From the human T2T-CHM13v2.0 reference genome, Homo sapiens: a stretch of DNA of 64,000 bases. Location of the stretch: assembly GCF_009914755.1 (NCBI RefSeq), contig NC_060929.1; one strand, 5' to 3'. This document shows, piece after piece, positions 9,616-37,729 of this stretch (the stretch's first letter is position 1; each line of letters starts with the position of its first letter). Under the pieces are notes generated by a model that saw nothing but the letters and a program-made list of their open reading frames with translations, did no database searches and had not been told where the DNA came from. The position numbers and the translations under genes are program-made.

Positions 9616-10609
9616 GTGGGGCTCCCAACCACAGGATTTGCCATACCCTAACCACAGAGGTGGGTATGAGACTGAGGTAGGTCAAATAGACTTTCCCTCC
9701 TGAGAATTCAACCTTGGTTGAGACACAGAGGGATGAGAAAGGGTAGCTGAACCACTGTAATAACACCAAGATCTCCAGAACTGCACTATGTCTGGCTCTC
9801 CCATGGCCCATGGTCCATCTTCCTTTGATTTTATAAGATATCTCAGTGCTCCTGGTGTTTATTTCACTATTATGCTTCATAACACATGTGTACACTACAT
9901 ATATCCTTCAATAATACATAAATCAATATTTCATAATCAACATTAAAGAATAAAAGAGCCAAAACAAGAGAATTTTAAAATATCTGCTCTCAGATAGTGG
10001 GGATAGGACTTGCTACAGACTCGAATGAAAGGAAAGAATTATGTGCTAATTCTGCTAAGGAAAATGGAAACCATTAAAATGCCTTAAAAGAACTAAAGAA
10101 ATGAAAACTCTAACCAGGTAAGAAAGGGAGTTAGTGGGATCTCAGTGAGGTTGAAGGCTCCACACCTCTTACACTTAACTAAAACATTGAACCCTATGGA
10201 CATGGGCTGCTGGATCATCTCATTGAAGGATGTGGTCTAGGAGACCCAATAGTTTCTTTATAGGCAACCATTAAAAAGACCAGCATGTCTATTTCATCCA
10301 CAGGAAGACCCGAGCATCCAAGGCATGAATCACACAACAAATTCTCTTCAAGAAAAGCAACGAGGTTCCAAGATGGCTGAATAGGAACAGCTCCAGTCTA
10401 TAGCTCCCAGTGTGAGTGATGCAGAAGATGGGTGATTTCTGCATTTCCAACAGAGGTACCAGGTTCATCTCACTGGAGCTTGTCAGACAGTGGGTGCAGT
10501 CCACAGAGTGTGAGCCGAAGCAGGGGCATCGCCTCACCTAGGAAGCACAAGGGGTCAGGGAATTCCCTTTCCTAGCCAAGGGAAGCCGTGACAGACGGTA
10601 CCTGGAAAA

Positions 10610-10792
10610 TCAGGACACTCCCACCCTAATACTGCGCTTTTCCAATGGTATTAGCAAATGGCACACCAGGAGATTATATCCCACACATGGCTCTGAGGGT
10701 CCCATGCCCATGAAGCCTCGCTCAGGGCTAGCACAGCAGTCTGAGATCAAACTGCAAGGTGGCAGCAAGGCTGGGGGAGGGGCGTCCACCAT
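10610..10792 (-). other. L1 antisense ORF0 homolog (60 aa, C-terminally shortened)
   Basis: MVDAPPPALLPPCSLISDCCAS...GPSEP...EKRSIRVGVS matches primate L1 ORF0p; ATG retained. Confidence 0.8.
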
Positions 10793-11366
10793 TGCTGAGG
10801 CTTCAGTAAGTAAACAAAATGCCCGGGAAGCTCGAACCGGGTGGAGCCCACCGCAGCTCAAGGAGGCCTGCCTGCCTCTGTAGACTCCACCTCTGGGGGC
10901 AGGGCATAGCCAAACAAAAGGCAGCAGAAACCTCTGCAGACTTAAATGTCCCTGTCCGACAGCTTTGAAGAGAGCAGTGGTTCTCCCAGCATGGAGTTTG
11001 AGATCTGAGAATGGACAGACTGCCTCCTCAAGTGGGTAACTGACCGAAAAACAGCCTAACTGGGAGGCACCTCCCAGTAGGGGCCAACTGACACCTCATA
11101 CGGCCGGGTGCCCCTCTGAGATGAAGCTTCCAGAGGAAGGATCAGGCACCAACATTTGCCATTCTGCAATATTTGTTATTTTGCAGCCTTAGCTGGTGAT
11201 ACCCAGGCAAACAGGGTCTGGAGTGGACCTCCAGCAAACTCCAACAGACCTGCAGCTGAGGGGCCTGACTGTCAGAAGGAAAACTAACAAACAGAAAGGA
11301 CATCCACACCAAAATCCCATCTATACGTCACCATCATCAAAGACCAAAGGTAGATAAAACCACAAA

Positions 11367-12390
11367 GCTGGGGAGAAACCAGAGCAGAAAAGCTGAAAAT
11401 TCTAAAAATCAGAGCGCCTCTTCTCCTAGAAAGGAACGCAACTCCTTGCCAGCAATGGAACAAAGCTAGATGGAGAATGACTTTCACGAGTTGAGAGAAG
11501 AAGGATTCAGACGATTAGTAATAAGAAACTTCTCTGACCTACATGAGGATGTTCGAACCAATCACAAAGAAGATAAAAACCTTGAAAAAAGATTAGATGA
11601 ATGGCTAACTAGAATAAACAGCATAGAGAAGACCTTAAATGACCTGATGGAGCTGAAAACCACAGCACAAGAACTACGTGATGCATGCACAAGCTTCAGC
11701 CGCCGATTAGATCAAGTGGAAGAAAGGGTATCAGTAACTGAAGATCAAATGAATGAAAAGAAGCGAGAAGAGAAGTTTAGAGAAAAAGGACTAAAAAGAA
11801 ATGAACAAAGCCTCCAAGAAATATGGGACTATATGAAAAGACCAAATCTACATCTGATTGATGTACCTGAAAATGACAGGGAGAATGGAACCAATGTGGA
11901 AAACATTCTGCAGGATATTATCCAGGAGAACTTCCCCAACCTAGCAAAGCAGGCCAACATTCAAATTCAGGAAATACAGAGAATGCCACAAAGATACTCC
12001 TCGAGAAGAGAAACTCCAAGACACATAATTGTCAGATTTACCAAGGTTGAAATGGAGGAAAAAATGTTAAGGGAAGCCAGAGAGAAAGGCTGGGTTACCC
12101 ACAAAGGGAAGCCCATCAAACTAACAGCAGATCTCTCTGAAGAAACTCTACAAGCCAGAAGAGAATGGGGGCCAATATTCAACATTCTTAAAGAAAAGAA
12201 TTTTCAACCCAGAATTTCATATCCAGCCAAACTAAGCTTCATAGTGAAGGAGAAATAAAATCCTTTACAGACAAGCAAATGCTGAGAGATTTTGTCAGCA
12301 CCAGGCCTGCCTTACAAGAGCTCCTGAAGGAAGCACTAAACATGGAAAGGAACAACTGGTACAAGCCACTGCAAAAAGATGCCATTGTAA
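11367..12390 (+). pseudogene. L1-a ORF1p remnant (start ATG changed to CTG, stop and frameshift)
   Basis: ORF 11470..12258 has ENFPNLA, TPRHIIVRF and REWGPIF motifs. Confidence 0.95.
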
Positions 12391-12453
12391 AGACCATCGA
12401 TGCTAGGAAGAAACTGCATCAACGAACGAGCAAAATAACCAGCTAACATCATA

Positions 12454-16261
<3,808 letters not shown>

Positions 16262-17129
16262 ACAATGAGAACACTTGGACAAAGGATGGGGAACGTCACA
16301 CATCAGGGCCTGTTGTGGGGTGGGGGGAGGGGGAAGGGATAGCATTAGGAAATATATCTAATGTAAATGACAAGTTAATGAGTGCAGCACAGCAACATGG
16401 CACATGTATACATATGTAACAAACCTGCACGTTGTGTACATGTACACTAGAACTTAAAGTATAATTTTTTTTAAAAAAAAAAGAAAGGAAAAGCAACATC
16501 TTTCTGCTTAGGATGAGAGCCTAATATACTTGGAATGATAAAACTTCTTTTTCAGTGAGTATCATTTTACCCTTGGAACCTTCCAAGGTTTCAAGGTATT
16601 TTAACACGCAAGTATTTTAAGTATTTTAAGGTAGATTACACACATCTTAACACCTACCCTATAACACTTGAGCACACACAGTGTGATGCCTTAATATGTT
16701 AGTTTAAGTTATAAACTAGGCACAGCCAGTGGCCTGATGGAGACTCCCTAGCCAGTCAGCAGGTCACCAGCAAATCCACACACCAGAGAGGGCTACAGTA
16801 AGAGCGTGAGCCAGGCACATCTTCATCAACATCAAAGGCTTTTCTAACTGACCTAGTGAAGACCAGTGGTTTCTGTTGGTGGAATTAATGGTATTCAAGT
16901 TGTATGATAGAGTAAGATATTTCAGTAAATATCCCCACACTTCATGAACAGCACAAGCATCCCAGGAAATGATGCCACTCAACATTTAATGTCCCAAGAG
17001 TCCCAGGTCCCCCACCAAGTCAGGAGCAGTCTGGACTGCAGATACCATCATATCTACCTTAGATGAACCTGCCACGCAATCGGTCAGACTACGCACAAGA
17101 CAGAGAACATACAAAAAATGACCAGTATA

Positions 17130-17235
17130 GGAGATAACGCATATGTTAATTAGCTCAATACAGCCATTACACAATTTATACATATTTTAAAACATCATGT
17201 TATACATGACAAATATGTACAACTTTGTGAATTTT
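17130..17235 (+). mobile_element. L1M extreme 3' end fragment
   Basis: gcatatgttaattagctcaatacagccatt...tacatattttaaaacatcatgtt. Confidence 0.6.
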
Positions 17236-18196
17236 TTAGTTACTTTTTTTAAGAAAACAGAATAGGGACTTCACTGAGCTCACAGGCTTGATAATAAGTG
17301 TTCATTACATGTCCAGATGGAGGGAAGAGTTTGGTCAGCCACGTGCTTTGCCTATAACCTGGTTGTGCCACTGTCTTCCACCTAAAAGAACCTGAGAGTT
17401 TCTGATAATCAAACAGGAAAGCTCACCACAAAAGGTTAGAATAGCAATGCCTTTATGTTACATTAAATAATAATCTGCATATGTTCAGTATTTATAGTGT
17501 TTAGGGATAATTTTGTCTATAAAAACCAACAGATTAGCTTTATGATTCCATTAAAATGTACTTATTTTCTACTTGAGATTTTAAGCTGAAAGATTTAAGG
17601 GTCTTGTCTAGGTTTGTACACAGCATTGGATGCTTAAGATAACTTGAGATTTACTATATTCATAAGATTAATTTATTACATTACCTACAGAGGGGAAATC
17701 AAATATATTATATTTATAAATGCAATAAAAATGTTTAAAGGAATTTAATTAACCAAGTTGTAAATGGGGCTGATTATTTAAGGTAGTTTTCTCTGTTCAG
17801 CTGGAACACTAAGAAAAGCGCCCTTGAACAGGATTGCTGAAATTCACTGGATTTATAAAAAGAACAATAAGATTTATAAGTGGCACTTCTATGGGCTTAA
17901 GGAAAACAAGACTTTTTAATTTATTATTTGAATAAATTGTAAACGAATTCATAATAAAAGTCCAAAATAAATGTAAATCATTCCTTTCGGGGGGGAAATT
18001 ACCTTAAAGACCAAAAAACTCACAGCAACAGATCAGAACTATGAATCATTATTAATTGAGATGTTGGCATTATTCTCCCACAGAAAGAATCACAGCATTC
18101 TACAACAGTTGTTGCCCAACTCTTTTGATTATGCACCCCTAATAGTAAAAGAACTTTGAAAATGTATCTGTAATATATGTATATTTATTGACACAT

Positions 18197-18623
18197 TGTG
18201 ATGGGCACTGCCACGCACTGCCCAGAGTCCCCAGAGAAGGACATGTTGCCCTGTGCTGTGGGCAGAGAGCCCCCAGTGATCAGTTCTTCAGGGATGCTGC
18301 AACTGCAGAGGGCCACCTGGATGAATGCATGTCCCTCTCAAGACAGCCTATATGCAGTGACTCATCCGTGCAGGTATATAAAGGCCTGGCCACCTGGGCC
18401 CAGCTCTAGAGAGCTCTGAAGGGCCATTCTAGCTCCCATGCTCTGCATGGCGTTGACCCAGGCTGTCACAGAGCCTGTGTCACAGATGGACCTCTCCTTC
18501 TGCTCCACCCTGATTCCTTCTGTCCTTCGTACAGATGTCAATGCCCAGGATATGCCCTAGCAAACATCCCACATGCTCCACTCCTTCCCAGAGTCTACTT
18601 CCCAGGAAACCCAACCTGTAACA
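18197..18623 (+). mobile_element. Solo ERVL LTR (LTR16 family)
   Basis: tgtgatggg...ccacatgctccactccttcccagagtctacttcccaggaaacccaacctgtaaca. Confidence 0.7.
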
Positions 18624-18773
18624 CAAACTACATATGCAAACATCTCAATTACTTTGTTAAACATTAGCAAAGCTTAATATCTTTATGATTTGAATACCTC
18701 AGCCTCGGAAATGGTAGTGAGGAGACCAGAATGCTAATGAGCCATAAAGTATGGATAATTGAGAGATTACCCT

Positions 18774-18982
18774 TGTCATAGTCCATTATGGCTGCTATAA
18801 GAAAGTATCTCACGAGGTAATTTATAAAAACAAATTTATTTCTCACACTTCTGAAGACTGAGAAATCCAAGACAAAGATCCACTGCCAGATCCACTGTCT
18901 AGTGAGGGCTCGCTTTTTGCTTCAAAGATGGCACATTCTAGGTTCCCTCACTTGGCAGGAAGGGGCAAAGAAACTCCCTCAA
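18774..18982 (-). mobile_element. MaLR LTR fragment (MLT1A/MSTD-like), cut at the L1 boundary
   Basis: tgtcatagtccattatggctgctataag...aaatttatttctcacacttctgaagactgagaaatccaag. Confidence 0.75.
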
Positions 18983-19943
18983 ACACCCAGAGGGCAGGGC
19001 ATGCGGCCCCACCAACCCCTACCACTGATAGTCAGGTGGGAATGCCAGAGCTTCCAGCCCAATGATCTTGCTTCTGTGTGAACGCAGCTAGAGGCCACAA
19101 CTTCCTGTTGTCCCAGGAGAAACTCAATGGCAGAGCATGCTACCTCGCCCACTCCCTCCACAGATAGCCAGGTGGGTGGGCAACACCTGCTACAGCTTCT
19201 GGCCCAGTGGTCCCACTTCTGTGTGAACTCAGCCAGTGGATACAGCCTCCTATTGTACCATGAAGCACCCAGACAGCAGGGCAGGTGCCTCCATCCACCT
19301 CTACCACAGGTAGTCAGGTGAGCCATGCCTGCTAGAGCTTCCAGCCCAACAGTCCTACTTCTGCCTGAATTTGCCAAGAGGCACACCTTCCTGTTGCCCT
19401 GGGAACACCAGGATGGCAGGGTAGGCAACTCTCCCCACCCTTGCTTCCTACAGCCAGAAGGGCCACACCCACTAGAGCTTCCAACCCAGTGGCCCTACTT
19501 CTGCCTGAGCTCTGCCAGAAGGTACAAACCTGTGTTTCCCCAGGAAGCAAACAAACATCAGATTAGGGCCAATCTAGGAAGGATAAGGCTTATCTGCCAA
19601 CTGTGGACCCTGCTTGAGAGAGTCTCATGGACCAAAACACCCAACAAAAAAACATGGGCATGGAGACAGTAATTGGAGGGGGCTCCTCCAAAGAGCCTGT
19701 AGCAGACTAGAACTGAAACCAGTCAACCAAACCCACCTTACACCATCATCAAATCCCCAAGGGCATCAAAGAAGCAAAAAGCAAAAAAAAAAAAAAACTA
19801 TCCAATTTATCTTTGAAGGATAGCAACTTCAAAGATTGAAGGAACATCAGGTCACACAAATCAGAAAGAACCACAGCAAGAACTCTGGCAACTCAAAAAG
19901 CCAGAGTGGCTTCTTTCCTCCAATGACCACACTAGTTCCCCAG

Positions 19944-20289
19944 TGTATTAGTCCATTTACACACTGCAATAAAGAACTACCTGAGACTGGGTAATTTATG
20001 AAGAAAAGAGGTTCAACTGAATCACAGTTCTGCAGGCTTAACAGGGAGCATGGCTGGAAGGCCTCAGGAAACTTATAATCATGGCAGAAGGGGAAGGGGA
20101 AGCAAGTACATCTTTACTGTGGCAGAGCAGGAGAGGGAGAGAGAGAGAGAGAGGAGGGGGAAGTGACAAACACTTTTAAACCATCAGCTCTCATGAGAAC
20201 TCACTCACTATCACTAAAACACCTCCCACCAGGCCCCTCCTCCAATTCGACATGAGATTTGGGTGGGGACACAAATCCAAATCACATCA
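19944..20289 (-). mobile_element. MSTA-like MaLR solo LTR with internal deletion
   Basis: tgtattagtcc...gagactgggtaatttatgaagaaaagagg...gggtggggacacaaatccaaatcacatca; perfect 5-bp TSD cccag. Confidence 0.9.
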
Positions 20290-23029
20290 CCCAGCAAGGG
20301 TTCTTAAACAAGCTGAAGTGGCTGAAATGACAGAAATAGAATTCAGAATATGGATAAGAATGAAGATCTTTGAGATTCAGGAGAATGTCAAGACTCAATC
20401 CAAGGAAGTTAAGAATCACAATAAAATATTACAGGAGCTCATAGACAAAATAACCATTATAAAAAAGAAGCAAACTAATCTAGTAGAGCTGAAAAATATA
20501 CTATAAGAATTGCATAATGCAATCACAAGTATTAACAACAGAACAGACTAAGCTGGGGAAAGAATCTCAGAGTTTGAAGACTGGCTGTCTCAAATAACTC
20601 AATGAGACAAAAATAAAGAAAAAAGAATGAACAACACCTCTGAGAAATACAGAATTATGTAAAGAAACCAAATCGATGATTCACTGGCATCCTCAAAAGA
20701 GATGAGGAGAAGGCAGGCAATTTGGAAAACATATTTCAGGATAGCATTTATTAAAACTTCACTACAGAGGCCAACATTCAAATTCAGGAAATGCAGAGAA
20801 CCCCTGTGAGGTTATACAAGAAGAGCATCCAGAAGATACATAATCAGATTCCACAGGCTGAAATGAAAGAAGAATCATTAAGGGTAACTAGAGACAAGGG
20901 ACAGGTAACCTACAAAGGGAATCCCATCAAGCTAAGAGTGGACCTTTCAGCAGAAATGCTGCAAGCCAGAAGAGACTGGGGGTCTATATTCAGGATTCTT
21001 AAAGAAAAAATGTTTAACCAATAATTTCATTTCCAGTCAAACTAAGCTCCGTAAGTGAAGGAGAAATAAGATTCTTTTCAGACAAGAAAATGCTGAGGGA
21101 ATTTGTTACCACCAGACCTGCCTTACAAGAAATCCTGAAAGGAGCAATAAATATGTAAAGGAAAGACCATTACCAGCCCCTACAAAAACACACTTAAGTA
21201 CATAGACAGGTGACACTAAAAAGCCACCACACAAATAAGTCTGCATAATAACCAGCCAACAACACAAACACATGATCAAATCCACAAAAATCAATATTAA
21301 TCTTGAAAGTAAATGGGCTAAATGCCCCAATTAAAAGGCACAGAGTGGCAAGCTAGATAAAAAAGCAGGGCCTAATGGTATACTGTCTTCAAGAGACCCA
21401 TCTCACATGCAATGACATCCATAGCCTCAAAATAAAGGGATGGAGAAAACATATCAAGAAAATGGAAAACAGAAGAAAGCAGGGGTTGCAGTCCTAATTT
21501 CAGAGAAAACAGACTTTAAACCAACAAAGATCAAAAGAGATAAAAAGGGGATTATATAGTGGTAATGGGTTCAATTCAACAAGAAGATCTAACTGTTTTA
21601 AACATACACACAACTAACACAACAACACCCAGATTCATAAGGCAAGTTTTTAGAAATCTATGAAGAGACTTATATTACCACACAGTAATAGTAGGTGACT
21701 TCAACACCTCAATGACAGTATAAGACAGATCACTGAGACAGAAAGTTATTTGGGACCTGAACTCAACACTTGACCAAATGGACCTAACAGACATCTAAAG
21801 AACTCTCCACCGAAACACAATAGAATATACATTCTTCTCAACACCACATGGCACACACTCCAAACTCGACCACACCATCAGACATAAAACAATACTCAGT
21901 AAATTTTTTAAAAAATGAAATCATACCCAACCACACTCTCAGACCACAGCACAATAAAAATAGAAATCAATAGTAAGAAAATTACTCAAAAGCATACAAT
22001 GTGGGGGGCGGTTCCAAGATGGCTGAATAGGAACAGCTGCAGTCTATAGCTCCCAGTGTGAGCGACGCAGAAGACGAACGATTTCTGCATTTCCAATTGA
22101 GATACCAGGTTCATCTCACTCGGGATTGTCGGACAGTGGGTGCACAACAGTGGGTGCAGCACACCGAGCGTGAGCCGAAGCAGGGTGAGGCAGTGCCTCA
22201 CCCAGGAAGCGCAAGGGGTCAGGGAATTCCCTTTCCTAGCCAAGGAAAGGGGTGACAGACAGCACCTGGAAAATCAGGTCACTCCCACCCTAATACTGTG
22301 CTTTTCCAACGGTCAGCAAATAGCACACCAGGAGATTATATCCTGTGCCTGGCTCAGAGGGTCCTATGCTCACGGAGCCTCACTCATTGCTAGCACAGCA
22401 GTCTGAGATCAAACTGCAAGGGGGCAGCGAGGCTGGGGGAGAGACGCCCACCACTGCTGAGGCTTGAGTAGGTAAACAAAGCGGCCAAGAAGATCAAACT
22501 GGGTGGAGCCCACCACAGCTCAAGGAGGCCTGCCTGCCTCTGTAGACTCCACCTCTGGGGGCAGGGCATAGCCAAACGAAATGCAGCAGAAATCTCTGCA
22601 GACTTAAATGTCTCTGTCTGACAGCTTTGAAGACAGTAGTGGTTCTCCCAGCACGCAGCTTGAGATCTGAGAACAGACAGACTGCCTCCTCAAGTGGGTC
22701 CCTGACCCCCGAGTAGCCTAACTGGGAGGCACCCCCCAGTAGGAGCAGACTGACACCTCACATGGCCGGCTACCCCTCTGAGATGAAACTTCCAGAGGAA
22801 TGATCAGGCAGCAACATTTGCTGTTCACCAATATTCCCTACTCTGCAGCCTCTGCTGCTGATACCCAGGCAAGCAGCGTCTGGAGTGGACCTCCAGCAAA
22901 CTCCAACAGAACTGCAGCTGAGGGTCCTGACTGTTAGAAGGAAAACTAACAAACAGAAAGGACATCCACACCAAAACCCCATCTGTACGTCACCATCATC
23001 AAAAACCAAAGGTAGATAAAACCACAAAG

Positions 23030-24036
23030 ATGGGGAAAAAACAGATCAGAAAAACTGAAAATTCTAAAAATCAAAGCACCTCTCCTCCTCCAAAGGAATG
23101 AAGCTCCTCACCAGCAATGGAACAAAGCTGGATGGAGAATGACTTTGACGAGTTGGGAGAAGGCTTCAGACGATCAAACTTCTCTGAGCTAAAGGAGGAA
23201 TTTCGAAGCCATGGCAAACAAGTTAAAAACCTTGAAAAAAGATTAGATGAATGGCTAACTAGAATAACCAATGCAGAGAAGTCCTTAAAGGACCTGATGG
23301 AGCCGAAAACCACAGCACAAGAACTATGTGATGAATGCACAAGCTTCAGTAGCTGATTCGATCAACTGGAAGAAAGGGTATCAGTGACGGAAGATCAAAT
23401 GAATGAAATGAAGCAAGAAGTTAAGTTTAGAGAAAAAAGAATAAAAAGAAATGAACAAAGCCTCCAAGAAATATGGGACTATGTGAAAAGACCAAATCTA
23501 GGTCTAATTGGTATACTGAAAGTGACGAGGAGAATGGAACCAAGTTGGAAAACACTCTGCAGGATGTTATCCAGGAGAACTTCCCCAACCTAGCAAGGCA
23601 GGCCAACATTCAAATTCAGGAAATACAGAGAATGCCACAAAGATACTCCTCGAGAAGAGAAACTCCAAGACACATAATTGTCAGAATCACCAAAGTTGAA
23701 ATGAAGGAAAAAATGTTAAGGGCAGCCAGAGAGAAAGGTCGGGTTAGCCACAAAGGGAAGCCCATCAGACTAACAGCTTATCTCTCTGAAGAAACTCTAA
23801 GGCCAGAAGAGAGTGGGGGCCAATATTCAACATTCTTAAAGAAAAGAATTCTCAACCCAGAATTTCATATCCAGCCAAACTAAGCTTCATAAGTGAAGAA
23901 GTAAAATACTTTACAGACAAGCAAATGCTGAGAGATTTTGTCAGCACCAGGCCTGCCTTACAAGAGCTCCTGAAGGAAGCACTAAACATGGAAAGGAACA
24001 ACTGGTACAAGCCACAGCAAAAACGCCAAATTGTAA
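23030..24036 (+). pseudogene. L1-b ORF1p remnant
   Basis: atggggaaaaaacag start; fragments 23117..23356 and 23473..23883 with stops and frameshifts. Confidence 0.95.
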
Positions 24037-24099
24037 AGACCATTGATGCTAGGAAGAAACTACATCAACGAATGAGCAAAATAACCAGCTAACATCATA

Positions 24100-27920
<3,821 letters not shown>

Positions 27921-30554
27921 ACAATGAGAACACATGGACACAGGAAGGGGAACATCACACAGCGGGGCCTGTTGTGGGGTGGGGGGAGGGGGGAGGGATA
28001 GCATTAGGAGATATACCTAATGTAAATGACGAGTTAATGGGTGCAGCACACCAATATGGCACATGTATACATATGTAACAAACCTGCACGTTGTGCACAT
28101 GTATTCTAAAACTTAAAGTATAATAAAAAATAAAAATAAAAAAATAAAAAATAAAAAAAAGCATACAATGACATGGAAATTAAGCAACCTGCCCCTGAAT
28201 GACTTTTAAGTAAATAATAAAATTAAAGAAGAAATCAAGAAATTCTTTGAAACTAATGAGGACAAAGATAAAACATACCAGAATCTCTGGGACATAACTA
28301 AAGCAGTGTCAAGAGGAAAGTTTATAGCACTAAAAGCCCACATCAAAAAGTTAGAAAGATCTCAAATTAACAATCTAACATCAGAACTAGAAGAACTAGA
28401 GGAGCAAGAGCAAGCTCACCCCAAAACTAACAGAAAACAGGAAACAACCAAAATCAGAGCTGAACTGAAGAAGATTGAGAAGCAAAAAAAAAAAAACGTA
28501 TTAAAAAAAGAGATTAATGAATTTAAGAGTTGGTTCTTTGAAAAAATAAGACAGAGAAACCACGAGCTAGACTAAAAAATTTTTTAAAAGATTCAAATAA
28601 ACACAATTAGAAATGACAAAAGGGACATTACCACTGACCTCACAGAAATACAAAAAAAAAATCAGGGACTACTATGAATATATGCAGACAAACTAGAAAA
28701 TCTAGAAGAAACAGATAAATTCCTGGACACATACAACTTCCCAAAGCTGAACCAGGAAGAAATTGAATCCCTGAACAGACCAATAACAAGTTCTGAAATT
28801 GAATCTGTAATAAAAGCGTACTAACCAAGAAAAGCCCAGAACCAGTTGGATTCACAGTAGATTTCTACTAGATGTATAAGGAAGAGCTAGTACCATTCCT
28901 ACTGAAACTATTCCAAAAAAAATTGAGGAGGGGGAACTCCTCCCTAACTCACTCTATGAGGCCAGAATGGCAGAAACACAACAAAAAAAGAAAGCTTCAG
29001 GCCAATTTCCTTGATGAACACAGATGCAAAAATCTTCAACAAAATACTAGCAAACCAAATCCAGTAGCACATCAAAAAGGTAATCGACAACGATCTAGTA
29101 GCCTTTTTCCCTGGGATACATGGTTGATTCAACATATGCAAATCAATAAATGTGATTCATCACATAAACAGAACTAAAAATAAAAACTGTGATTATCTCA
29201 GAAAAGACTTTCAGTAAAATTTAACATCCATTCATGTTATAAGCTCTTAACAAACTAGGCATCAAAGGAACACACTTCAATATAATAAGAGTCATCTATG
29301 AGTAAGCCACAGCCAACATACTGAGTGGGCAGGAAACATTCTCCTTGAGAACCAGAACGAGACAAGGATACCCTCTCTTACCACTCCTATTCAATACAGT
29401 ATTGGAAGTGCTGGCCAGAGCAATCAGGCAAGAGAAAGAAAAGGCATCCAGAGAGAAAGAGAGTATGTCAAAGTATCCCTGCTTACAGAAAACATGATTC
29501 TATCTCTAGAAAACCCCATAGTTTCTGCCCATAATCTCCTTGATCTGATAAACAACTTCAGCAAAGTTTCCGGATACAAACTTAATGTACAAAAATCAGT
29601 AGCATTCCTATACACCAAGATCCAAACCAAGAGCCAAATCACAAATGAAACTGCATTCACAATTGCCACAAAAAATAAAATACCTAGGAATACACCTAAC
29701 CAGGCAGGTGAAAGGCCTCTACAACAAGAATTACAAAACACTGCTCAAAGAAATCAGCAAAAACACAAGCAAATGGAAAAACATTACATACTTATGGACA
29801 GGAAGAATCAATATCACTAAAATGGCCATTGTGCCCAAGACAATTTACAGATTCAATGCTATTTCTATCAAATGACTGATGACATTCTTCACAGAACTAG
29901 AAAAACTATTAATATTTTAAAATTCATATAGAACAAAAAAAGCCCAAATAGCAAAGGCAATCCTAAGCAAAAATAAGAAAACTGGAGGCATCATGTTACC
30001 CAACTTCAAAGTATACTACAGGGTACTGGTAACCAAACAGCATGGTACTTGTACAAAAATAGACACATAGACCAAAGGAAGTGAACAGAGAACCCAGAAA
30101 TAATGCTGCACACCTATGACCATCTGATCTTCGACAAACCTTACAAAAATAAGCAATAGAGAAAGCATTTCCCATTTAATAAATGGTACTGGGATAAATG
30201 GCTAGGTATATATGCAGAGATTGAAACTGGACCTCTTTCTTTTGCATCCAAAAAATAACAAATGTATACTTTAATTTCTAAAATAGGTGTCTTGACATGT
30301 GCACAACTGTATTTTCCTAGTGCAAACTTTCCCATCGATTATTATAATTTTTAAAAATTATACTTTAAGTACTAGGGTACATGTGCACAATGTGCAGGTT
30401 ACATAGATGTATGTTTCATGTTGGTGTGCTGCACCCATCAACTCGTCATTTACATTAGGTATTTATCCTAATGCTATCCCTCCCCCAGCCACACACCCCA
30501 CAACAGGCCCCAGTGTGTGATGTTCCCCGCCCTGTGTCCATGTGTTCTCATTGT

Positions 30555-33500
30555 TCAGCTCCCACTTATGAGTGAGAACATGTGGTGTTTGGTTTTCTGT
30601 CCTTGTGATAGTTTGCTGAGAATGATGGTTTGCAGCTTCATCCATGTCTCTGCAAAGGACATGAACTCATCCTTTTTTATGGCTGCATAGTATTCTGTGG
30701 TGTATATGTGCCACATTTTCTTAATCCAGTCTATCATTGATCAGCATGTGGGTTGGTTCCAAGTCTTTCCTATTGTGAAGAGTGCTGCAATAAACATACG
30801 TGTGTCTTTATAACAGCATGATTTATAATCCTTTGGGTATATACCCAGTAATGGAATGGCCAGGTCAAATGGTATTTCTAGTTCTAGATCCTTGAGGAAT
30901 CGCCACACTGTCTTCCACATCAGTTGAACTAATTTACACTCCCACCAACAGTGTAAAACTATTCCTATTTCTCCACATCCTCTCCAGCACCTATTGTTTC
31001 CTGACTTTTTAATGATCGCCATTCTAACTGGTGTGAGATGGTATCTCATTGTGGTTTTGATTTGCATTTCTCTGATGACCAGTGATGATGAGCATTTTTT
31101 CATATGTCTGTGGGCTGCATAAACGTTTTCTTTTCAGAAGTGTCCATTCATATCCTTTGCCCATTTTTTGATGGGGTTGTTTTTCTCTTGTAAATTTGAG
31201 TTCTTTGTAGATTCTGGATATTAGCCCTTTGTCAGATGGATAGGTTGCAAAAATTTTCTCCTATTCTGTAGGTTGCCTGTTCACTCTGATGGTAGTTTCT
31301 TTTGCTGTGGAGAAGCTGTTTAGTTTAATTAGATCCCACTTGTCAATTTTGGCTTTTGTTGCCATTGCTTTTGGTGTTTTAGTCATGAAGTCTTTGCCCA
31401 TGCCTATGTCCTGAATGGTATTGCCTAGGTTTTCTTCCAGGGTTTTTCTGGTTTTAAGTCTTACATTTAAGTCTTTAACCTATCTTGACTTAATTTTCAT
31501 ATAAGCTGTAAGGAAGGGATCCAGTTTCAGCTTTCTACATGTGGCTAGCCAGTTTTCCCAGCACCATTTATTAAATAGGGAATCCTTTCCCCAGTGCTTG
31601 TTTTTGTCAGGTTTTTCAAAGATCAGATGGCTGTAGATGTGTGGTGGTTATTTCTGAGGCCTCTGTTCTGTTCCATTGGTCTATATCTCTGTTTTGGTAC
31701 CAGTACCATGCTGTTTTTGTTACTGTAGCCTTGTAGTATAGTTTGAAGTCAGATAGTGTGATGCCCTGGCTTTGTTCTTTTTGCATAGGATTGTCTTGGC
31801 TATGTGGGCTCTTTTTTGGTTCCATATGAACTTTAAAATAGATTTTTCCAATTCTGTGAACAAAGTCATTGGTAGCTTGATAGGGATGACATTGAATCTA
31901 TAAATTACCTTGGGCAGTATGGCCATTTTCATGATACTGATTCTTCCCATCCAGGAGCATGGAATGTTCTTCAATTTGTTTGTGTCCCCTTTTATTTCAT
32001 AGAGCAGTGGTTTGTAGTTCTCCTTCAAAAGGTCCTTCACATCCCTTATAAGATGGATTCCTAGGTATTTTATTCTTTTTGTAGTAATTGTGAATGCGAG
32101 TTCACTCACGATTTGGCTCTCTGTTTGTCTGTTATTGGTGTATAAGAATGCTTGTGATTTTTGCACATTGATTTTGTATCCTGAGACTTTGCTCAAGTTG
32201 CTTATTAGCTTAAGGAGATTTGGGGCTGAGACGATGGGGTTTTCTAAATATACAATCATGTTATCTGCAAACGGAGACAATTTGATTTCCTTTTTTCCTA
32301 ACTGAGTACACTTTCTTTCTTTCTCTTGCCTGACTGCCCTGGCCAGAACTTCCAACGCTATGTTGAATAGGAGTGGTGAGAGAGGACATCCTTGCCTTGT
32401 GTCAGTTTTCAAAGGGAATGCTTCCGGTTTTTGCCCATTCGGTATGGTACTGGCTGTGGGTTTGTCATAATAGCTCTTATTATTTTGAGATATGTTGCAT
32501 CAATACCTAGTTTATTGGCAGTTTTTAGTATGAAGGGCTGTTGAATTTTGTAGAAGGCCTTTTCTGCATCTATTGAGATAATCATGTGGTTTTTTTCCTT
32601 GGTTCTGCCTATGTGATGGATTACATTTATTGATTTGTGTATGTTGAACCAGCCTTGCATCCCAGGGATGAAGCCAACTTGATCATGGTGGATAAGCTTT
32701 TTGATGTGCTGCTGGATTCCTTTTGCCAGTATTTTATTGAGCATTTTTGCATTGATGTTCATCATGGATAATGGCCTAAAATTCTCTTTTTTGTTGTGTT
32801 TCTGCCAGGCTTTGGTATCAGGATGATGCTGGCCTCATAAAATGAGTTAGGAAGGATTCTCTCTTTTTCTGTTGTTTGGAATAGTTTCAGAAAGAATGGT
32901 ACCAGCTTCTCTTTGTACCTCTGGTAGATTTCGGCTGTGAATCCATCTGGTCCTGGAATTTTTTTTATTTGTAGGCTATTAATTATTGCCTCAATTTCAG
33001 AACCTGTTATTGTTCTATTCAGAGATTCAACTTCTTCCTGGTTTAGTCTTGGGAGGGTATATGTGTGCAGGAATTTATCCATTTCTTCTAGATTTTCTAG
33101 TTTATTTGCAAAGAAATGTTTATAGTATTCTCTGACGGCAGTTTGTATTTCTGTGGGGTCAGTGGTGATATCCCCTTTATCATTTTTTATTGCATCTATT
33201 TGATTCTTCTCTCATTTCTTCTTTGTTAGTCTTGGTAGCAGTCTATCTATTTTGTTGATCTTTTCAAAAAACCAGATTCATTGATTTTTTTGAAGGGTTT
33301 TTCATGTCTCTTCAGTTCTGCTCTGATCTTAGTTAGTTCTTGCCTTCTGCTAGCTTTTGAATTTGTTTGCTCTTGCTTCTCTAGTTCCTTTAATTGTGAT
33401 GTTAGGGTGTCAATTTTAGATCTTTCCTGCTTTCTCTTGTGGGCATTTAGTGCTATAAATATCCCTCTACACACTGCTTTAAATGTGTCCCAGAGATTCT

Positions 33501-34353
33501 GGTATGTTGTGTCTTTGTTCTCACGGGTTTCAAAGAACATCTTTATTTCTGCCTTCATTTCATTATTTACCCAGTAGTCATTCAGGAGCAGGTTGTTCTG
33601 TTTGCATGTACTTGAACGGTTTTGAGTGAGTTTCTTAATCCTGGGTTCTAATTTGATTGCACTGTGGTCTGAGAGACAGTTTGTTGTGATTTCTGTTCTT
33701 TTGCATTTGCTGAGGAGTGCTTTACTTCTAACTATGTGGTCAATTTTAGAATAAGTGCGATGTGGTGCTGAGAAGAATGTATATTCTGTTGATTTGGGGT
33801 GGAGAGTTCTGTAGATGTTTATTAGGTCTGCTTGGTGCAGAGCTGAGTTCAAGTCCTGGATATCCTTGTTAACCTTCTGTCTTGTTGATCTGTCTAATAT
33901 TGACAGTGGGGTGTTAAAGTCTCCCATTATTATTGTGTGGGAGTCTAAGTCTCTTTGTAGGTCTCTAAGGACTTGCTTTATGAATCTGGGTGCTCCTGTA
34001 TTGGATACATATATATTTAGGATAGTTCACTCTTCTTGTTGAATTGATCCCTTTACCATAATGTAATGGCCTTCTTTGTCTCTTTTGATCTTTGTTGGTT
34101 TAAAGTCTGTTTTATCAGAGACTAGGATTGCAACCCCTGCTTTATTTGCTTTCCATTTGCTTGGTAGATCTTCCTCATTCCCTTTATTTTGAGCCTATGT
34201 GTGTCTTTGCACATGAGATGGGTCTCCGGAATACAGCACTCTGATGGGTCTTGACTCTTTATCCAATTTGCCAGTCTATGTCTTTTAATTGGGAGCATTT
34301 AGCCCATTTACATTTAAGGTTAATATTGTTATGTGTGAATTTGATCTTGTCAT
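30555..34353 (-). pseudogene. L1-c ORF2p remnant
   Basis: GDFN, SDH and RQGCPLSP motifs; catalytic FADD changed to FADN; frameshifts. Confidence 0.95.
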
Positions 34354-34416
34354 TATGATGTTAGCTGGTTATTTTGCCCATTAATTGATCCAGTTTCTTC
34401 ATAGTGTCAATGGTCT

Positions 34417-35438
34417 TCACAATTTGGTATGTTTTTGCAGTGTCTGGTACTGGTTGTTCATTTCCACGTTTAGTGCTTCCTTCAGGAGCTCTTGTAAGGC
34501 AGGTCTGGTGCTGACAAAATCTCTCAGTATTTGCTTGTCTGTAAAGTATTTTACTTCTTCACTTATGAAGCTTAGTTTGGCTGGATATGAAATTCTGGGT
34601 TGAAAATTCTTTCTTTAAGAATGTTGAATATTGGCCCCCACTCTCTTCTGGCTTGTAGAGTTTCTTCAGAGAGATCTGCTGTTAGTCTGATGGGCTTCCC
34701 TTTGTGGGTAACCCGACCTTTCTCTCTGGCTGCCCTTAACATTTTTTCCTTCATTTCAACCTTGGTGAATCTGACAATTGTGTGCCTTCAGGTTGCTCTA
34801 CTCAAGAAATATCTTTCTGGTGTTCTCTGTATTTCCTAAATTTGAATGTTGGCTTGTCTTGCTAGGTTGGGGAATTTCTCCTGGATAATACCCTGAAGAG
34901 TGTTTTCTAATTTGGATCCATTCTCCCCATCACTTTCAGGAAGACCAATCAAACATAGATTTGGTCTTTTCATATAGTACCATATTTCTTGGAGGCTTTG
35001 TTCATTTCTTTTCACTCCTTTTTCTCTAATCTTGTCTTGTCACTTTATTTCATTAATTTGATCTTCAATTACTGATATCCTTTCTTCTACTTGATCGAGT
35101 CAGCTACTGAAGCTTGTGCATGCGTCACGAAGTTCTTGTGCTGTGGTTTTCAGCTCCAGCAGGTCATTTAAGGTCTTCTCCACATTGTTTATTCTAGTTA
35201 GCCATTTGTCTAACCTTTTTTCAAGGTTTTTAACTTCCTTGCTATAGGTTGGAACATGATCCTTTAGCTTGGAGAAGTTTGTTATTACCAACCTTCTGAA
35301 GCCTACTTCTGTCAACTCATCAATCTCATTCTCTATCCAGTTTTGTTCCTTTGCTGGCCAGTAGCTGTGATCCTTTGGAGGAGAAGAGGCACTCTGGCTT
35401 TTGGAATTTTCAGCTTTTCTGCTCTGGTTTCTCCCCAT
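34417..35438 (-). pseudogene. L1-c ORF1p remnant
   Basis: MGRNQSRKAENSK start, in-frame stops, REWGPIF motif. Confidence 0.95.
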
Positions 35439-36042
35439 CTTTGTGGTTTCATCTACCTTTGGTCTTTGATGATGGTGACCTACAGATGGGGTTTTGGTGT
35501 AGATGTGCTTTTTGTTGACGCTGATGCTATTCCTTTCTGTTTGTTAGTTTTCCTTCTAACAGTCGGGCCTCTCAGCTGCAGGTCTGTTGGAGTTAGCTGG
35601 AGGTCCACTCCAGACCCTGTTTGCCTGGGTGTCACCAGCAGAGGATGCAGAACAGCAAATATTTCTGCCTGGTCCTTCCTCTGGAAGCTTCATCCCAGAG
35701 GGGCACCTGCCTGTATGAGGTGTCTGTCAGCCCCTACTGGGAGGTGTCTCCCAGTCAGGCTACATGGGGGTCAGGGATCTACTTGAGGAGGCAGTCTGTC
35801 CATTCTCAGAGCTCAAATCCCATGCTGGGAGAACCACTGCTCTCTTCAGAGCTGTCAGACAGGGACGTTTAGGTCTGCCGAAGCTGTCTGCTGCCTTTTG
35901 TTCTGATATGCCCTGCCCACAGAGATGGAGTCTACAGCAAGGCAGTAGGTCTTGCTGAGCTGTGGTGGGCTCCACCCAGTTTGAGCTTCCTGGCCTCTTT
36001 GTTTACACTGTGAGCACAAAACCGCCTACTCAAGCCTCAGCA

Positions 36043-36183
36043 ATGGTGGATGCCCCTCCCCCCGCCAAGCAGCAGCATTGCAGGTTGATGTCATACTGCT
36101 GCGCTAGCAGTGAGCAAGGCACCGTGGGGCTGGGACCCACCGAGCCAGGCACAGGAGGGAATTTCCTGGTCTGCCGGTTGTGA
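36043..36183 (+). other. L1-c antisense ORF0 homolog (46 aa, truncated)
   Basis: MVDAPPPAK...CCAS...GPTEPG resembles ORF0p. Confidence 0.65.
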
Positions 36184-37729
36184 AGACTGTGGGAAAAGCA
36201 TAGTATTTGGACAGGAGTGTACCATTCCTCCAGGTACAGACTGTCACAGCTTCCCTTGGCTAGGAAAGGGTAATACCCTGACCCCTTGCACTTCCTGGGT
36301 GAGGTGACACACTGCCCTGCTTCAGCTCGCCCTCCATGGGCTGCACCCACTGTCCAACCAGTCCCAATGAGATGAACCAGGTACCTCAGTTGGAAATGCA
36401 GAAATCACCCTTCTTCTGTGTTGATCTCGCTGGGAACTGCAGACCAGAGCTGTTGCTATATGGCCATCTTGGAACTCTGAAATGGACCTCTTTCTTACAC
36501 CACATACAAAAATAAACTCAAGATGGATTAAAGACTTAAATGTAAAACCTAAAACTATAAAAACCCAGGAAGATAACCTAGGAAATACCATTCTGAATAT
36601 AGGACTTGGCAAAGATTTCATGACAAAGATGCTGAAAGAAATTATAACAAAAACAAAAATTGATGAATGGGTTCTAATTAACCTAAAGAGATTCTTCACT
36701 GCAAAAGAAACTATGAATTGAGTAAAGAAACAACCTATAGAATGGGAGAAAATGTTTGCAAACTATGCAAACAGGTGATGGCATCTTAGACTCAACAAAA
36801 TACACAAGCATGTGTAAATCCATTTTAATCCACAACCTGGGAGTAGGGAGTTAATATTGTACATGCCTCAATCAAGAATCTACCCTCTTGGAGCAATTCC
36901 TTAGTATTTGAAAGATCCTTTCAGAAGTCGACAACCTAGAACTATTCAACCAAGAGCTATTCAACTATTACACTCTGAATCAGAGAGTTTGTTTTGCTAG
37001 AAATAATTTTTTGTTAGTAAAATGAATGGTTTCAAGGTATCTGAATTGGCTAGAAATATTTTCCAGGCACCTGTGCTCAGGCATGGCCAGGGCACAAAAG
37101 TCTCACTAGCAGTCTAACACCAGGCCTATGATGACATTAAGTCTTTGGATTCCACAGAATTGCTAAGAATTCTGCTGCGTGCTTTAACTTTCAAAGAGGC
37201 TACGGACAGAGAGTGGAAACTTCGCTGGGCTCCCAAGACAGGTTTTCTGCTTCCTTATTAAACAAAGCTTTTTGGCAATGAGGTGGGCAGAATTCATTCT
37301 AAGACTTGCTTTCTTTGTCAACACTTGGTAATAAGGTGATGGAGGATGAGAAGGAAAGCCCTCACCTACCTCTGCTCTTGGGAGGCAATCTATATCTCCC
37401 AAAATCACTGGACAAGTGTGAAGGCCAAACTGACCCATCTGCAGCTGGAAGCCTGCCCAGTTCCTGACCTCCGGTCACCACCGTCACCAAAGTCACTTCT
37501 ATTAGCCACCCAGGGTACAACTGATTCAAGAACTGTAACTCAAGTCATGAACCTCTGCAATCATGAAAACCTCTCTTCTTCGCACAAATATATGAATAAA
37601 ATGACATTGGCACAAGTTCAGCTTGTAGAAATTCATTTAATGTTGCCTCAGGTAATTAGTTTATTTGGTCTGTCAAAGTGACCCAAAGCTTATCCATTTG
37701 GAGTCTCTGTTATGAACAGACATATAGTA

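What the first reader, a model, noticed from the sequence alone, without database searches (positions are those of the whole stretch)
10362..36477. All three L1PAs carry the same non-consensus changes; a further set links L1-a and L1-b
Seen in all three (a / b / c): ADLSEET instead of ADLSAET (about 12139 / 23788 / 34665), gtcagcacc instead of gtcaccacc (12298 / 23944 / 34511) and DPFLTA instead of DPFLTP (15291 / 26959 / 31506). Seen only in a and b: RRETPRH for RRATPRH (12011 / 23660), ggtacaagcc, catcaacga, caatcaagagaaa, ccactactcaat and tggactaacaaaatg (16092-16096 / 27751-27755). Consensus states are recalled from L1HS/L1PA. The a+b and b+c sharing patterns conflict with a single tree, and the middle element is the hub. 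Inference: a conversion network spreading mutations stepwise along an L1 cluster over about 26 kb, also between direct repeats.
Basis: partly seen in the sequence, partly recalled or inferred. Interest (0 to 1): 0.72.

Follow-up and report, generated by a model that had tools for sequence, protein, structure and literature searches.

The report
Neighbouring dead L1s swapped short patches
Three separately inserted, long-dead L1 retrotransposons lying within 26 kb on human chromosome 5 share mutations found almost nowhere else in the genome, which is best explained by repeated short copy-and-paste repair (gene conversion) between neighbours, a known process seen here in unusually clear form.

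Summary
Three full-length L1PA copies sit at a 10364-16465 (+), b 22010-28124 (+) and c 30353-36475 (-). Their flanks differ; a and b have their own target-site duplications, and c belongs to another, older subfamily.

Against panels of their closest relatives on other chromosomes, every pair shares far more "private" states than expected:
- a+b: 9 observed, 1.5 expected.
- a+c: 8 observed, 2.3 expected.
- b+c: 12 observed, 2.3 expected.
- All three: 5 further states.

Exact genome-wide counts show these are not subfamily states:
- The ADLSEET 20-mer occurs 4 times in 3.1 Gb, 3 of them here.
- A b+c deletion-plus-substitution 21-mer occurs only in b and c.
- Other compound variants occur 3 to 11 times.
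- No other locus carries two of 12 variants compared (13 searched).

Each type carries a few diagnostic states of the other type, in patches under 100 bp. One 252-bp stretch is 1.2% diverged between b and c, against 6.4-6.8% to a.

Best reading: repeated short-tract non-allelic gene conversion, probably in both directions (confidence 0.72). The "hub, stepwise" detail is not established, because a and c also share states directly. For a+b alone, a parent-daughter origin is not excluded. This is a clear instance of a known process, so interest is moderate.

The parts
10364..16465 (+). L1-a, full-length dead L1PA copy ('A-type' subfamily), 6102 bp
   Evidence: Self-BLAST and three-way alignment. 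Flanked by GAAAAGCAAC on both sides. Longest stop-free stretch is 447 aa.
22010..28124 (+). L1-b, full-length dead L1PA copy, same subfamily as a, 6115 bp
   Evidence: A 14-bp target-site duplication, AAAAGCATACAATG, on both sides. As close to the a-like panel majority as a itself: 176 against 194 private states.
30353..36475 (-). L1-c, full-length dead L1PA copy of another, older subfamily ('C-type'), inverted, 6123 bp
   Evidence: The 39 best non-self matches of its 5' 2 kb share no locus with the 39 best of a. 26 diagnostic sites separate the two panels across the two regions compared. No target-site duplication of 7 bp or more was found.
20605..21997 (+). 5' part of an older L1 into which b inserted (3' part at 28157-30241)
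   Evidence: It matches a 11779-13171 at 73%; the continuation matches a 13162-15287 at 75%. Together with b's target-site duplication this shows that b is a separate insertion.
28157..30241 (+). 3' part of the older L1 split by b
12131..12150 (+). Two-base variant (12138 T, 12140 A; ADLSAET to ADLSEET) in a; same word in b at 23780-23799 and in c at 34656-34675 (minus)
   Evidence: A at 12140 is in 0 of 29 a-like and 0 of 8 c-like copies; T at 12138 is in 0 of 29 a-like and 1 of 8 c-like copies. The 20-mer has 4 hits in the genome, 3 of them here. The fourth, on chr3, is a C-type copy.
12288..12304 (+). 12298 G (GTCAGCACC) in a; also in b (23934-23950) and c (34505-34521, minus)
   Evidence: 0 of 29 and 0 of 8 panel copies carry it. 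The 17-mer has 31 hits genome-wide, 3 of them here.
15277..15294 (+). 15291 G (DPFLTA) in a; also in b (26945-26962) and c (31503-31520, minus)
   Evidence: 0 of 26 a-like copies carry it. The 18-mer has 57 hits, 3 of them here.
23889..23909 (+). b+c-specific 3-bp deletion (a 12249-12251) plus the adjacent substitution (a 12255 G); same word in c at 34546-34566 (minus)
   Evidence: The deletion is in 0 of 29 and 0 of 8 panel copies; 12255 G is in 1 of 29 and 0 of 8. The 21-mer has exactly 2 hits in the genome, b and c.
26714..26965 (+). b side of the least-diverged b-c stretch (a 15046-15297; c about 31500-31752)
   Evidence: 3 differences in 252 bp (1.2%) between b and c, against 6.35% a-b and 6.75% a-c over the same stretch. 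15 of 18 variable sites have b=c; scan-statistic p = 0.0018, one of 12 tests.
25858..25881 (+). b+c compound variant (a 14201 G, 14204 A); c at 32584-32607 (minus)
   Evidence: 0 of 14 a-like copies carry it. The 24-mer has 3 hits genome-wide, 2 of them here.
27141..27160 (+). b+c compound variant (a 15479 C, 15487 C); c at 31305-31324 (minus)
   Evidence: Absent from 15 a-like and 6 c-like copies. The 20-mer has 5 hits, 2 of them here.
16088..16102 (+). a+b compound variant (16092 C, 16096 C); b at 27747-27761
   Evidence: Carried by 1 of 28 and 0 of 28 panel copies. The 15-mer has 11 hits, 2 of them here; the reversed control word has 6.
15299..15315 (+). a+c compound variant (15299 G, 15308 G); c at 31482-31498 (minus)
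   Evidence: 15299 G is in 0 of 15 a-like and 1 of 8 c-like copies; 15308 G is in neither panel. The 17-mer has 7 hits, 2 of them here.

Best explanation
Three L1 copies inserted independently. c came first, from an older subfamily. Later a and b arrived from a younger one, b landing 2.2 kb from c in inverted orientation and a 5.5 kb upstream of b in direct orientation. In the germ line, DNA breaks in one copy were then repeatedly repaired using a neighbouring copy as template (non-allelic, intrachromosomal gene conversion without crossover). Because the copies were only about 90-97% alike, the copied patches were short, mostly under 100 bp and at most a few hundred. Each patch carried whatever private mutations or subfamily states the donor had. 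The result is a mosaic in which every pair, and in four places all three copies, share mutations that are otherwise almost absent from the genome.

Shown here: independent insertion, the different subfamily of c, the excess and genome-wide rarity of the shared states, other-type patches, and one b-c stretch of low divergence.

Inferred: the repair mechanism itself, its germ-line timing and the number of events. About 10 patches per pair is of the order expected from published conversion rates for nearby duplicates.
For: Independent origin.
- Homology between the copies ends at the L1 ends.
- a and b each have their own target-site duplication, and b is nested in an older L1.
- The 39 best non-self matches of c's 5' 2 kb share no locus with the 39 of a.

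Excess sharing. States shared by a pair and by no other of about 30 aligned copies:
- ab 9 against 1.47 expected (Poisson P 2e-5).
- ac 8 against 2.30 (P 3e-3).
- bc 12 against 2.31 (P 6e-6).
- Allowing one other carrier: 18, 17 and 23 against 3.2, 4.5 and 4.6.
- Five states are shared by all three and absent from 26-29 a-like panel copies.

Genome-wide rarity (exact word counts, total hits / hits here).
- 4/3
- 2/2
- 3/2
- 5/2
- 7/2
- 11/2
- 22/2
- 23/2
- 25/2
- 31/3
- 34/2
- 57/3
- 83/2
- Over the first 12 lists, 27 of 284 hits lie in this window, and no other locus holds two different variants within 8 kb.

Other-type patches.
- b has C-type states at 11622-3 beside the shared private 11621, and at 15138 and 15308.
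- a has a C-type state at 12045.
- c has A-type states at 11699, 12147 and 15111.
- Totals: a 3 of 26 and b 4 of 26 diagnostic sites, against 20 of 684 in a-like panel copies.

Low-divergence stretch. b-c is 1.2% diverged over 252 bp, against 6.4-6.8% to a.

Polarity hint. The only other genomic carrier of the ADLSEET word is a C-type copy on chr3 (16 of 19 diagnostic sites). It also carries 12598 A, 12514 C and 12045 G, and shares 7 further non-majority states with c alone. This points to c as donor to a and b.

Published rates. Non-allelic conversion in human duplicates has an estimated mean tract of 250 bp and 2.5e-7 per site per generation, slowing with divergence (10.1101/135152, abstract). 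Sharing of non-diagnostic mutations between Alus, elevated within 10 kb, is described in PMC6598467 and PMC8230782 (passages).
Against: - Overall similarity is not raised. b is only about 20th of 30 fetched loci in identity to a's 3' 1066 bp (93.07%). It is not among the 40 scored matches of a's 5' 2 kb.
- Only one stretch of reduced divergence survives correction. A first maximal-segment test was marginal (p 0.02-0.08), and no tract is detectable for a-c.
- The shared sites of the three pairs are tightly interleaved (for example ac at 11736 and ab at 11738). This demands many very short patches.
- No GC bias was found: shared W>S 13 to S>W 11, against private 134 to 185, Fisher p = 0.29.
- Donor polarity conflicts inside the b-c stretch: 15111 is A-type in c, while 15138 is C-type in b.
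- Panel copies were picked as the best matches, so they carry fewer private mutations than a, b or c. The expected counts may therefore be too low by up to about twofold.
- Panel depth is only 10-17 copies between 13901 and 14900.
- Some unlinked panel pairs also share many unique states (up to 4.2 per kb among a-like copies and 18 per kb among c-like copies). Small source lineages therefore do exist.
- c's 3 of 26 other-type states do not exceed the c-like panel (18 of 200).
Confidence: 0.72

Rival explanations
1. Common descent for a and b. One is the retrotransposed daughter of the other, or both come from one very small source lineage, so a+b (and a+b+c) states were inherited rather than converted. 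Only exchanges with c need conversion.
For: The a+b pair-specific states are spread evenly from 10932 to 16096, as inheritance predicts. a and b belong to the same subfamily. No a-b tract of low divergence can be attributed to a-b exchange, since the one significant window reflects c's local divergence. Unlinked panel pairs with many shared unique states show that small lineages exist.
Against: A daughter landing 5.5 kb from its parent, or two of two lineage members landing 11.6 kb apart, has a prior near 1e-5 if insertion sites are random (inference). No other locus carries two of the tested a+b variants. This rival does not explain the ac (8 against 2.3) or bc (12 against 2.3) excess, so conversion is needed anyway. 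No 3' transduction of the other copy's flank is visible.
Confidence: 0.13
2. The shared states are diagnostic states of an L1PA subfamily, or of an intermediate subfamily, and differ only from the L1HS consensus that the reader recalled.
For: 11663-4 (CA) in all three copies is indeed the C-type state (6 of 8 c-like copies). 12357 and 12363 are polymorphic in the a-like panel (7 and 3 of 29). 75 of 77 a=b, c-different sites in the 3' 1066 bp are simply the panel majority.
Against: 13 exact word counts give 2-83 hits, against more than 11,600 candidate L1 matches per query. The key states are absent or nearly absent from both the a-like (15-29 copies) and c-like (6-8 copies) panels. Variants do not co-occur elsewhere.
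Confidence: 0.03
3. Chance parallel mutation at hot sites in three old, decayed copies.
For: Some coincidences are expected, at 1.5-2.3 pair-unique and 3.2-4.6 near-unique states per pair. Several shared single sites have mismatches right beside them. Single-base variants recur 22-83 times genome-wide.
Against: Observed counts are 3.5 to 6 times the expectation in all three pairs. Compound variants and a shared deletion with 2-11 hits in 3.1 Gb cannot be coincidence.
Confidence: 0.04
4. Segmental duplication: the three L1s are DNA-level copies of one ancestral insertion.
For: They lie close together and are all full length.
Against: Homology stops at the element ends. a and b have different target-site duplications, and b sits inside another L1. 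The 5' 600 bp of c are only 78-80% identical to a and b, and c matches a different set of relatives.
Confidence: 0.01

Closest known systems
Homogenisation of neighbouring Alu elements by non-allelic gene conversion (Aleshin and Zhi 2010, read only as cited in PMC6598467 and PMC8230782)
   Same: Dispersed, independently inserted retroelements share non-diagnostic mutations with near neighbours. The rate is reported as elevated within about 10 kb. Partial, mosaic conversion occurs between subfamilies in both directions.
   Different: Here the elements are 6-kb L1s, not 300-bp Alus. Three copies of two subfamilies are involved, about 8-11% diverged. The evidence is a single locus resolved site by site rather than a genome-wide correlation. 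The original paper was not available.
Non-allelic gene conversion between human gene duplicates (Harpak et al., 10.1101/135152, abstract read)
   Same: Short tracts (mean 250 bp) at a rate above point mutation, slowing as the copies diverge. That fits about ten small patches per pair and little effect on overall divergence.
   Different: Those copies arise by duplication and start identical. Here the partners were never identical, and one pair crosses subfamilies. The GC bias reported there is not detectable here.
L1 gene conversion reports (Burton et al. [quoted passage not shown]
   Same: One L1 sequence is replaced in part by another.
   Different: As recalled, those cases concern replacement of an old element by a young active one. 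Here three old dead copies exchanged micro-patches locally.
Conversion spreading linked mutations among ISX transposable elements on the Drosophila neo-X (PMC4384637, search listing and abstract start only)
   Same: Mutations spread between dispersed copies of a transposable element by non-allelic conversion.
   Different: That case is driven by selection for binding sites. No function or selection is evident here.

Membership tests
Non-allelic (interlocus) gene conversion between dispersed repeats | The copies arose independently, not by duplication of a segment | tested here: met
   Flanks are not homologous. a and b have their own target-site duplications, and b is nested in an older L1. 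c belongs to another subfamily.
Non-allelic (interlocus) gene conversion between dispersed repeats | The partners share derived states that are absent from the family at large | tested here: met
   Pair-unique states: 9, 8 and 12 against 1.5, 2.3 and 2.3 expected. 13 word counts give 2-83 hits genome-wide.
Non-allelic (interlocus) gene conversion between dispersed repeats | Mosaic structure: conflicting groupings, and other-subfamily states in patches | tested here: met
   The ab, ac and bc classes are all in excess. Other-type states: a 3 of 26 and b 4 of 26, against 20 of 684 in the panel. c, at 3 of 26, is not above its own panel.
Non-allelic (interlocus) gene conversion between dispersed repeats | Tracts of locally reduced divergence between donor and acceptor | tested here: inconclusive
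   One b-c stretch: 3 differences in 252 bp, scan p = 0.0018 among 12 tests. None for a-c. The a-b window is explained by c's local divergence. The first segment test was marginal.
Non-allelic (interlocus) gene conversion between dispersed repeats | GC-biased transmission | tested here: inconclusive
   Shared W>S 13 to S>W 11, against private 134 to 185; odds ratio 1.63, p = 0.29.
Non-allelic (interlocus) gene conversion between dispersed repeats | The pre-conversion state is visible at the orthologous locus of a related species | not testable with these tools
L1PA subfamily-diagnostic states | The state is carried by most copies of a subfamily genome-wide | tested here: not met
Segmental duplication | Homology extends beyond the repeat into the flanks | tested here: not met
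Small source lineage or parent-daughter pair (a and b) | Other members carry the same combination of variants, or one copy carries transduced flank of the other | tested here: not met
   No co-occurrence of two variants elsewhere. No transduced flank. The hypothesis itself is not excluded for a+b if the lineage has only these two members.

The most novel reading that the evidence does not exclude
Micro-patch conversion between neighbouring L1s may be pervasive rather than a curiosity of this locus.
- In this cluster, 10-22% of the states absent from the a-like panel are shared with a neighbour: b 26 of 118, a 22 of 149, c 25 of 244.
- Among 257 hits of 12 rare L1 words elsewhere in the genome, 11 pairs lie within 50 kb, where 0.19 would be expected at random.

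If most of those pairs are independent insertions rather than duplications or young siblings, then substitutions in clustered L1 remnants are not independent. That would bias L1-based clocks, mutation spectra and subfamily calls.
Probability: 0.25. Interest if true: 0.55.

Novelty: new member of a known kind. Interest (0 to 1): 0.4.

Why it matters
Old L1 copies are widely treated as independent neutral records: for dating insertions, for defining subfamilies and for measuring mutation rates and spectra. This locus shows, site by site, that copies a few kb apart can trade private mutations and subfamily-diagnostic states for a long time after they die. That includes exchange across subfamilies and between inverted as well as direct repeats. 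Here a tenth to a fifth of each copy's apparently private states are shared with a neighbour.

The process itself is known, best from Alu and from gene duplicates, so this is a clean example rather than a new principle. Its practical use is as a test case for a genome-wide measurement in complete (T2T) assemblies. One b-c patch may be only a few million years old, so it could also date such events when compared across apes.

Tried and rejected
- Segment and scan tests. A maximal-segment permutation test on the three-way site patterns gave only marginal segments. A fixed-width scan gave one convincing b-c window and nothing for a-c.
- GC bias. Comparing shared with private states showed no significant bias.
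- chr5:10.033 Mb copy (L077). It holds the a+b word at 13165-13184, but of the four a+b states listed there it shares only 13170 and 13172, not 13927 or 14168. So it is not treated as a further member.
- ORF2 part of the chr3 ADLSEET carrier (L079). It shares none of the b+c rare states and no c-only state, so it gives no polarity for the ORF2 patches.
- Close pairs elsewhere. Four other close pairs that share the 12011 word were checked at the predicted L1 3' junction.
  - In one pair (chr2 122.45/122.49 Mb) both junctions were found, and the flanks differ.
  - In the other three pairs, one member had no L1 end at the predicted place.
  - The chr2 pair differs at only 7 of 939 sites and belongs to yet another subfamily. 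It may be young siblings and says little about conversion.
- Panels. The a-like panels therefore consist of different copies for the 5' and 3' halves. c-like copies cover only a 11520-12460 and 14560-15760.
- Denominator. The majority form of each word was not counted, to avoid very long listings. The number of first-look candidates (11,612-12,044) stands in for family size.
- Unavailable sources. Aleshin and Zhi 2010 is not held.
- Subfamily names. Names such as L1PA5-8 were not assigned, because no reference library was available. 'A-type' and 'C-type' are defined by the panels only.


Full report
ANATOMY

The region holds three full-length L1PA copies:
- a at 10364-16465 (+).
- b at 22010-28124 (+).
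- c at 30353-36475 (-).

Homology between them stops at the element ends. Further points on origin and state:
- a is flanked by GAAAAGCAAC on both sides.
- b is flanked by a 14-bp duplication, AAAAGCATACAATG. It splits an older L1 whose halves lie at 20605-21997 and 28157-30241.
- No duplication of 7 bp or more was found for c.
- All three are dead. Their longest stop-free stretches are 447, 334 and 259 aa.

Over 6018 ungapped columns:
- 5153 are identical in all three.
- c alone differs at 389, b alone at 199 and a alone at 246.
- All three differ at 31.
- Pairwise divergence is 7.9% (a-b), 11.1% (a-c) and 10.3% (b-c).

With three sequences alone these counts are only branch lengths. Conflict can appear only after the states are polarised.

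THE OBSERVATION

There is one nuance: b reads AYLSEET rather than ADLSEET, but carries the same two-base change.

REFERENCE COPIES

The window's own genome could be searched.
- The 3' 1066 bp of a drew 11,709 candidates, of which 40 were scored.
- Its 5' 2037 bp drew 11,612 candidates, of which 40 were scored.
- From these I used 28 copies covering a 13901-16465 and 29 copies covering a 10364-13900, all on other chromosomes or far away.

b is unremarkable in overall identity:
- It ranks about 20th of 30 fetched loci in the 3' part, at 93.07%.
- It is not among the 40 scored in the 5' part.

The 5' 2 kb of c drew 12,044 candidates. Its 39 best non-self matches share no locus with the 39 of a. 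So c belongs to another subfamily, and its best matches are somewhat less similar to it (85-90% against 87-91%). Eight c-like copies were fetched for two regions, a 14560-15760 and a 11520-12460.

MOST SHARING IS ORDINARY; A RESIDUE IS NOT

In the 3' 1066 bp, 75 of 77 sites with a=b and c different simply carry the panel majority. Only 16092 and 16096 are a+b states that the panel lacks.

Over the whole element, counted against the panel majority:
- Private states: a 194, b 176, c 352.
- Shared non-majority states: ab 36, ac 26, bc 42, abc 20. Many of these sit at CpG or polymorphic sites.

Restricting to states absent from the a-like panel leaves 34 shared states: ab 9, ac 8, bc 12 and abc 5. 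The private states under the same filter are a 127, b 92 and c 219.

As a null, I compared each of a, b and c with every panel copy. States shared by a pair and by nobody else:

| Pair | Observed | Expected | Poisson P |
|---|---|---|---|
| ab | 9 | 1.47 | 2e-5 |
| ac | 8 | 2.30 | 3e-3 |
| bc | 12 | 2.31 | 6e-6 |

Allowing one other carrier, the counts are 18, 17 and 23, against 3.2, 4.5 and 4.6.

Caveat: the panel copies were chosen as best matches, so they are less decayed than a, b and c. The expectation may therefore be low by up to about twofold. Even so, the excess remains.

GENOME-WIDE COUNTS

Exact words spanning the variants were counted in the 3.1-Gb genome.

| Variant (a coordinates) | Shared by | Total hits | Hits here |
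|---|---|---|---|
| 12138+12140 (ADLSEET 20-mer) | abc | 4 | 3 |
| 12298 | abc | 31 | 3 |
| 15291 | abc | 57 | 3 |
| 3-bp deletion plus 12255 | bc | 2 | 2 |
| 14201+14204 | bc | 3 | 2 |
| 15479+15487 | bc | 5 | 2 |
| 15201+15203 | bc | 25 | 2 |
| 15299+15308 | ac | 7 | 2 |
| 16092+16096 | ab | 11 (reversed control word: 6) | 2 |
| 13168-13172 | ab | 22 | 2 |
| 13927 | ab | 23 | 2 |
| 12011 | ab | 34 | 2 |
| 14795 | ab | 83 | 2 |

- Over the first 12 lists, 27 of 284 hits lie in this window, and no other locus carries two different variants within 8 kb.
- With one search added, I compared its hit list by eye with the earlier ones. Two different a+b words lie 7.2 kb apart on chrX at 55.78 Mb. 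Their order and spacing do not fit one element, and one such coincidence is not unexpected (my estimate is about 0.2).

Caveat: the tool warns that counts for repeats are lower bounds. The lists showed no sign of a cap (up to 83 rows). The majority forms were not counted.

SUBFAMILY-DIAGNOSTIC SITES

With both panels, 26 sites separate the a-like ('A-type') from the c-like ('C-type') copies in the two regions.

Other-type states:
- b has C-type states at 11622-3, directly beside a b+c private state at 11621, and at 15138 and 15308.
- a has a C-type state at 12045.
- a and b both have CA at 11663-4, the C-type state. This site may be a decayed CpG, which weakens it.
- c has A-type states at 11699, 12147 and 15111.

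These patches are bounded by unconverted diagnostic sites less than 100 bp away.

Totals:
- a 3 of 26 and b 4 of 26, against 20 of 684 in a-like panel copies.
- c 3 of 26, not above its own panel (18 of 200).

States absent or nearly absent (at most one carrier) in both panels include:
- bc: 14703, 14860, 14915, 15080, 15166, 15203, 15349, 15479, 15487, and the 12249-51 deletion with 12255.
- ab: 12011, 12424, 14755, 14795.
- ac: 11736, 11788, 11833, 15299, 15308.

TRACTS

Between a 15046 and 15297, b and c differ at 3 of 252 sites (1.2%). Over the same stretch a-b is 6.35% and a-c 6.75%. There, 15 of 18 variable sites have b=c, with scan p = 0.0018 among 12 tests.

If divergence scales with time, and a and b are roughly 20-30 million years old, this patch would be only a few million years old. 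The ages and rates are recalled, not tested, and the uncertainty is wide.

Elsewhere no tract stands out:
- Nothing for a-c.
- The a-b window at 11931-12026 reflects a local burst of changes in c.
- An earlier segment test was marginal.

The shared sites of the three pairs interleave closely. This means many short patches, roughly ten per pair after subtracting chance. That is of the order expected from the published rate and tract length for nearby human duplicates (10.1101/135152, abstract).

POLARITY

The only other carrier of the ADLSEET word lies at chr3:173.40 Mb.
- It is C-type at 16 of 19 diagnostic sites.
- It has T at 12147, and also carries 12598 A (a b+c state), 12514 C (an a+c state) and 12045 G.
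- It shares 7 non-majority states with c alone, against 1 with a alone and 3 with b alone.

This suggests the variant belonged to c's source lineage and was copied from c into b and a.

In ORF2 the same chr3 copy shares none of the b+c states. It has the C-type T at 15111, where c has the A-type G. This hints at transfer from b to c there, while 15138 points the other way. Direction is therefore mixed and unresolved.

RIVALS

- Segmental duplication and subfamily states are excluded as above.
- Chance explains a minority of the single-base sites only.
- A parent-daughter or two-member source lineage could explain the evenly spread a+b states. It needs a very unlikely local landing, finds no other member, and leaves ac and bc unexplained.
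- The 'hub' idea is weakly supported at most. b takes part in the two richest pairs and lies between the others, but a and c share states directly.

COMPARISON WITH WHAT IS KNOWN

- Sharing of non-diagnostic mutations between neighbouring Alus, mosaic conversion between Alu subfamilies in both directions, and a rate that rises within 10 kb are described in PMC6598467 and PMC8230782 (passages read).
- Conversion parameters for duplicates are in 10.1101/135152 (abstract).
- For L1 I saw only a reference entry to Burton et al. 1991 (in PMC5640379).
- Four full-text searches turned up no study of rare-variant sharing between neighbouring old L1s. Most subscription papers are not in the library, so this is not proof of absence.

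VERDICT

This is a new, well-resolved member of a known kind.

Noticed in passing
genome places listed (outside the window): Rare L1 words tend to occur in close pairs elsewhere too. There are 11 pairs within 50 kb among 257 non-local hits of 12 words, against 0.19 expected at random, plus one more pair (chr9 81.65/81.68 Mb). At the predicted 3' junction, one of four pairs checked had both junctions with different flanks. In the other three, one member had no L1 end at the predicted place. The chr2 122.45/122.49 Mb pair differs at only 7 of 939 sites and is of another subfamily.
   Followed up: partly
chr5:10033470 (about 49.5 kb beyond the window's end), locus L077: A further L1, 88 kb downstream of b, holds the a+b word at a 13165-13184. 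Of the four a+b states listed there it shares 13170 and 13172 but not 13927 or 14168.
   Followed up: yes
chrX 55778086 and 55785296 (outside the window): Two different a+b variant words lie 7.2 kb apart on the same strand, in an order and spacing that do not fit one element. This is probably coincidence.
   Followed up: no
window 36463-36765: Directly beside the 5' end of c lies a fragment of another, older L1 on the plus strand. It is 78% identical to a 15252-15556, so c also landed in or next to older L1 sequence.
   Followed up: no
window 11931-12026 in a; c about 34780-34875: c carries a dense local burst of differences here: 17 of 18 variable sites are c-specific. This is more than its average, and the cause was not examined.
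   Followed up: no
window 16466-16482: The 3' end of a is followed by TTTTTTT and then an A run, rather than a plain poly-A tail.
   Followed up: no
alignment (panel copies, other chromosomes): Some unlinked panel pairs share many unique states, up to 18 per kb among c-like copies and 4.2 per kb among a-like copies. This points to small source lineages or duplications within the panels.
   Followed up: no
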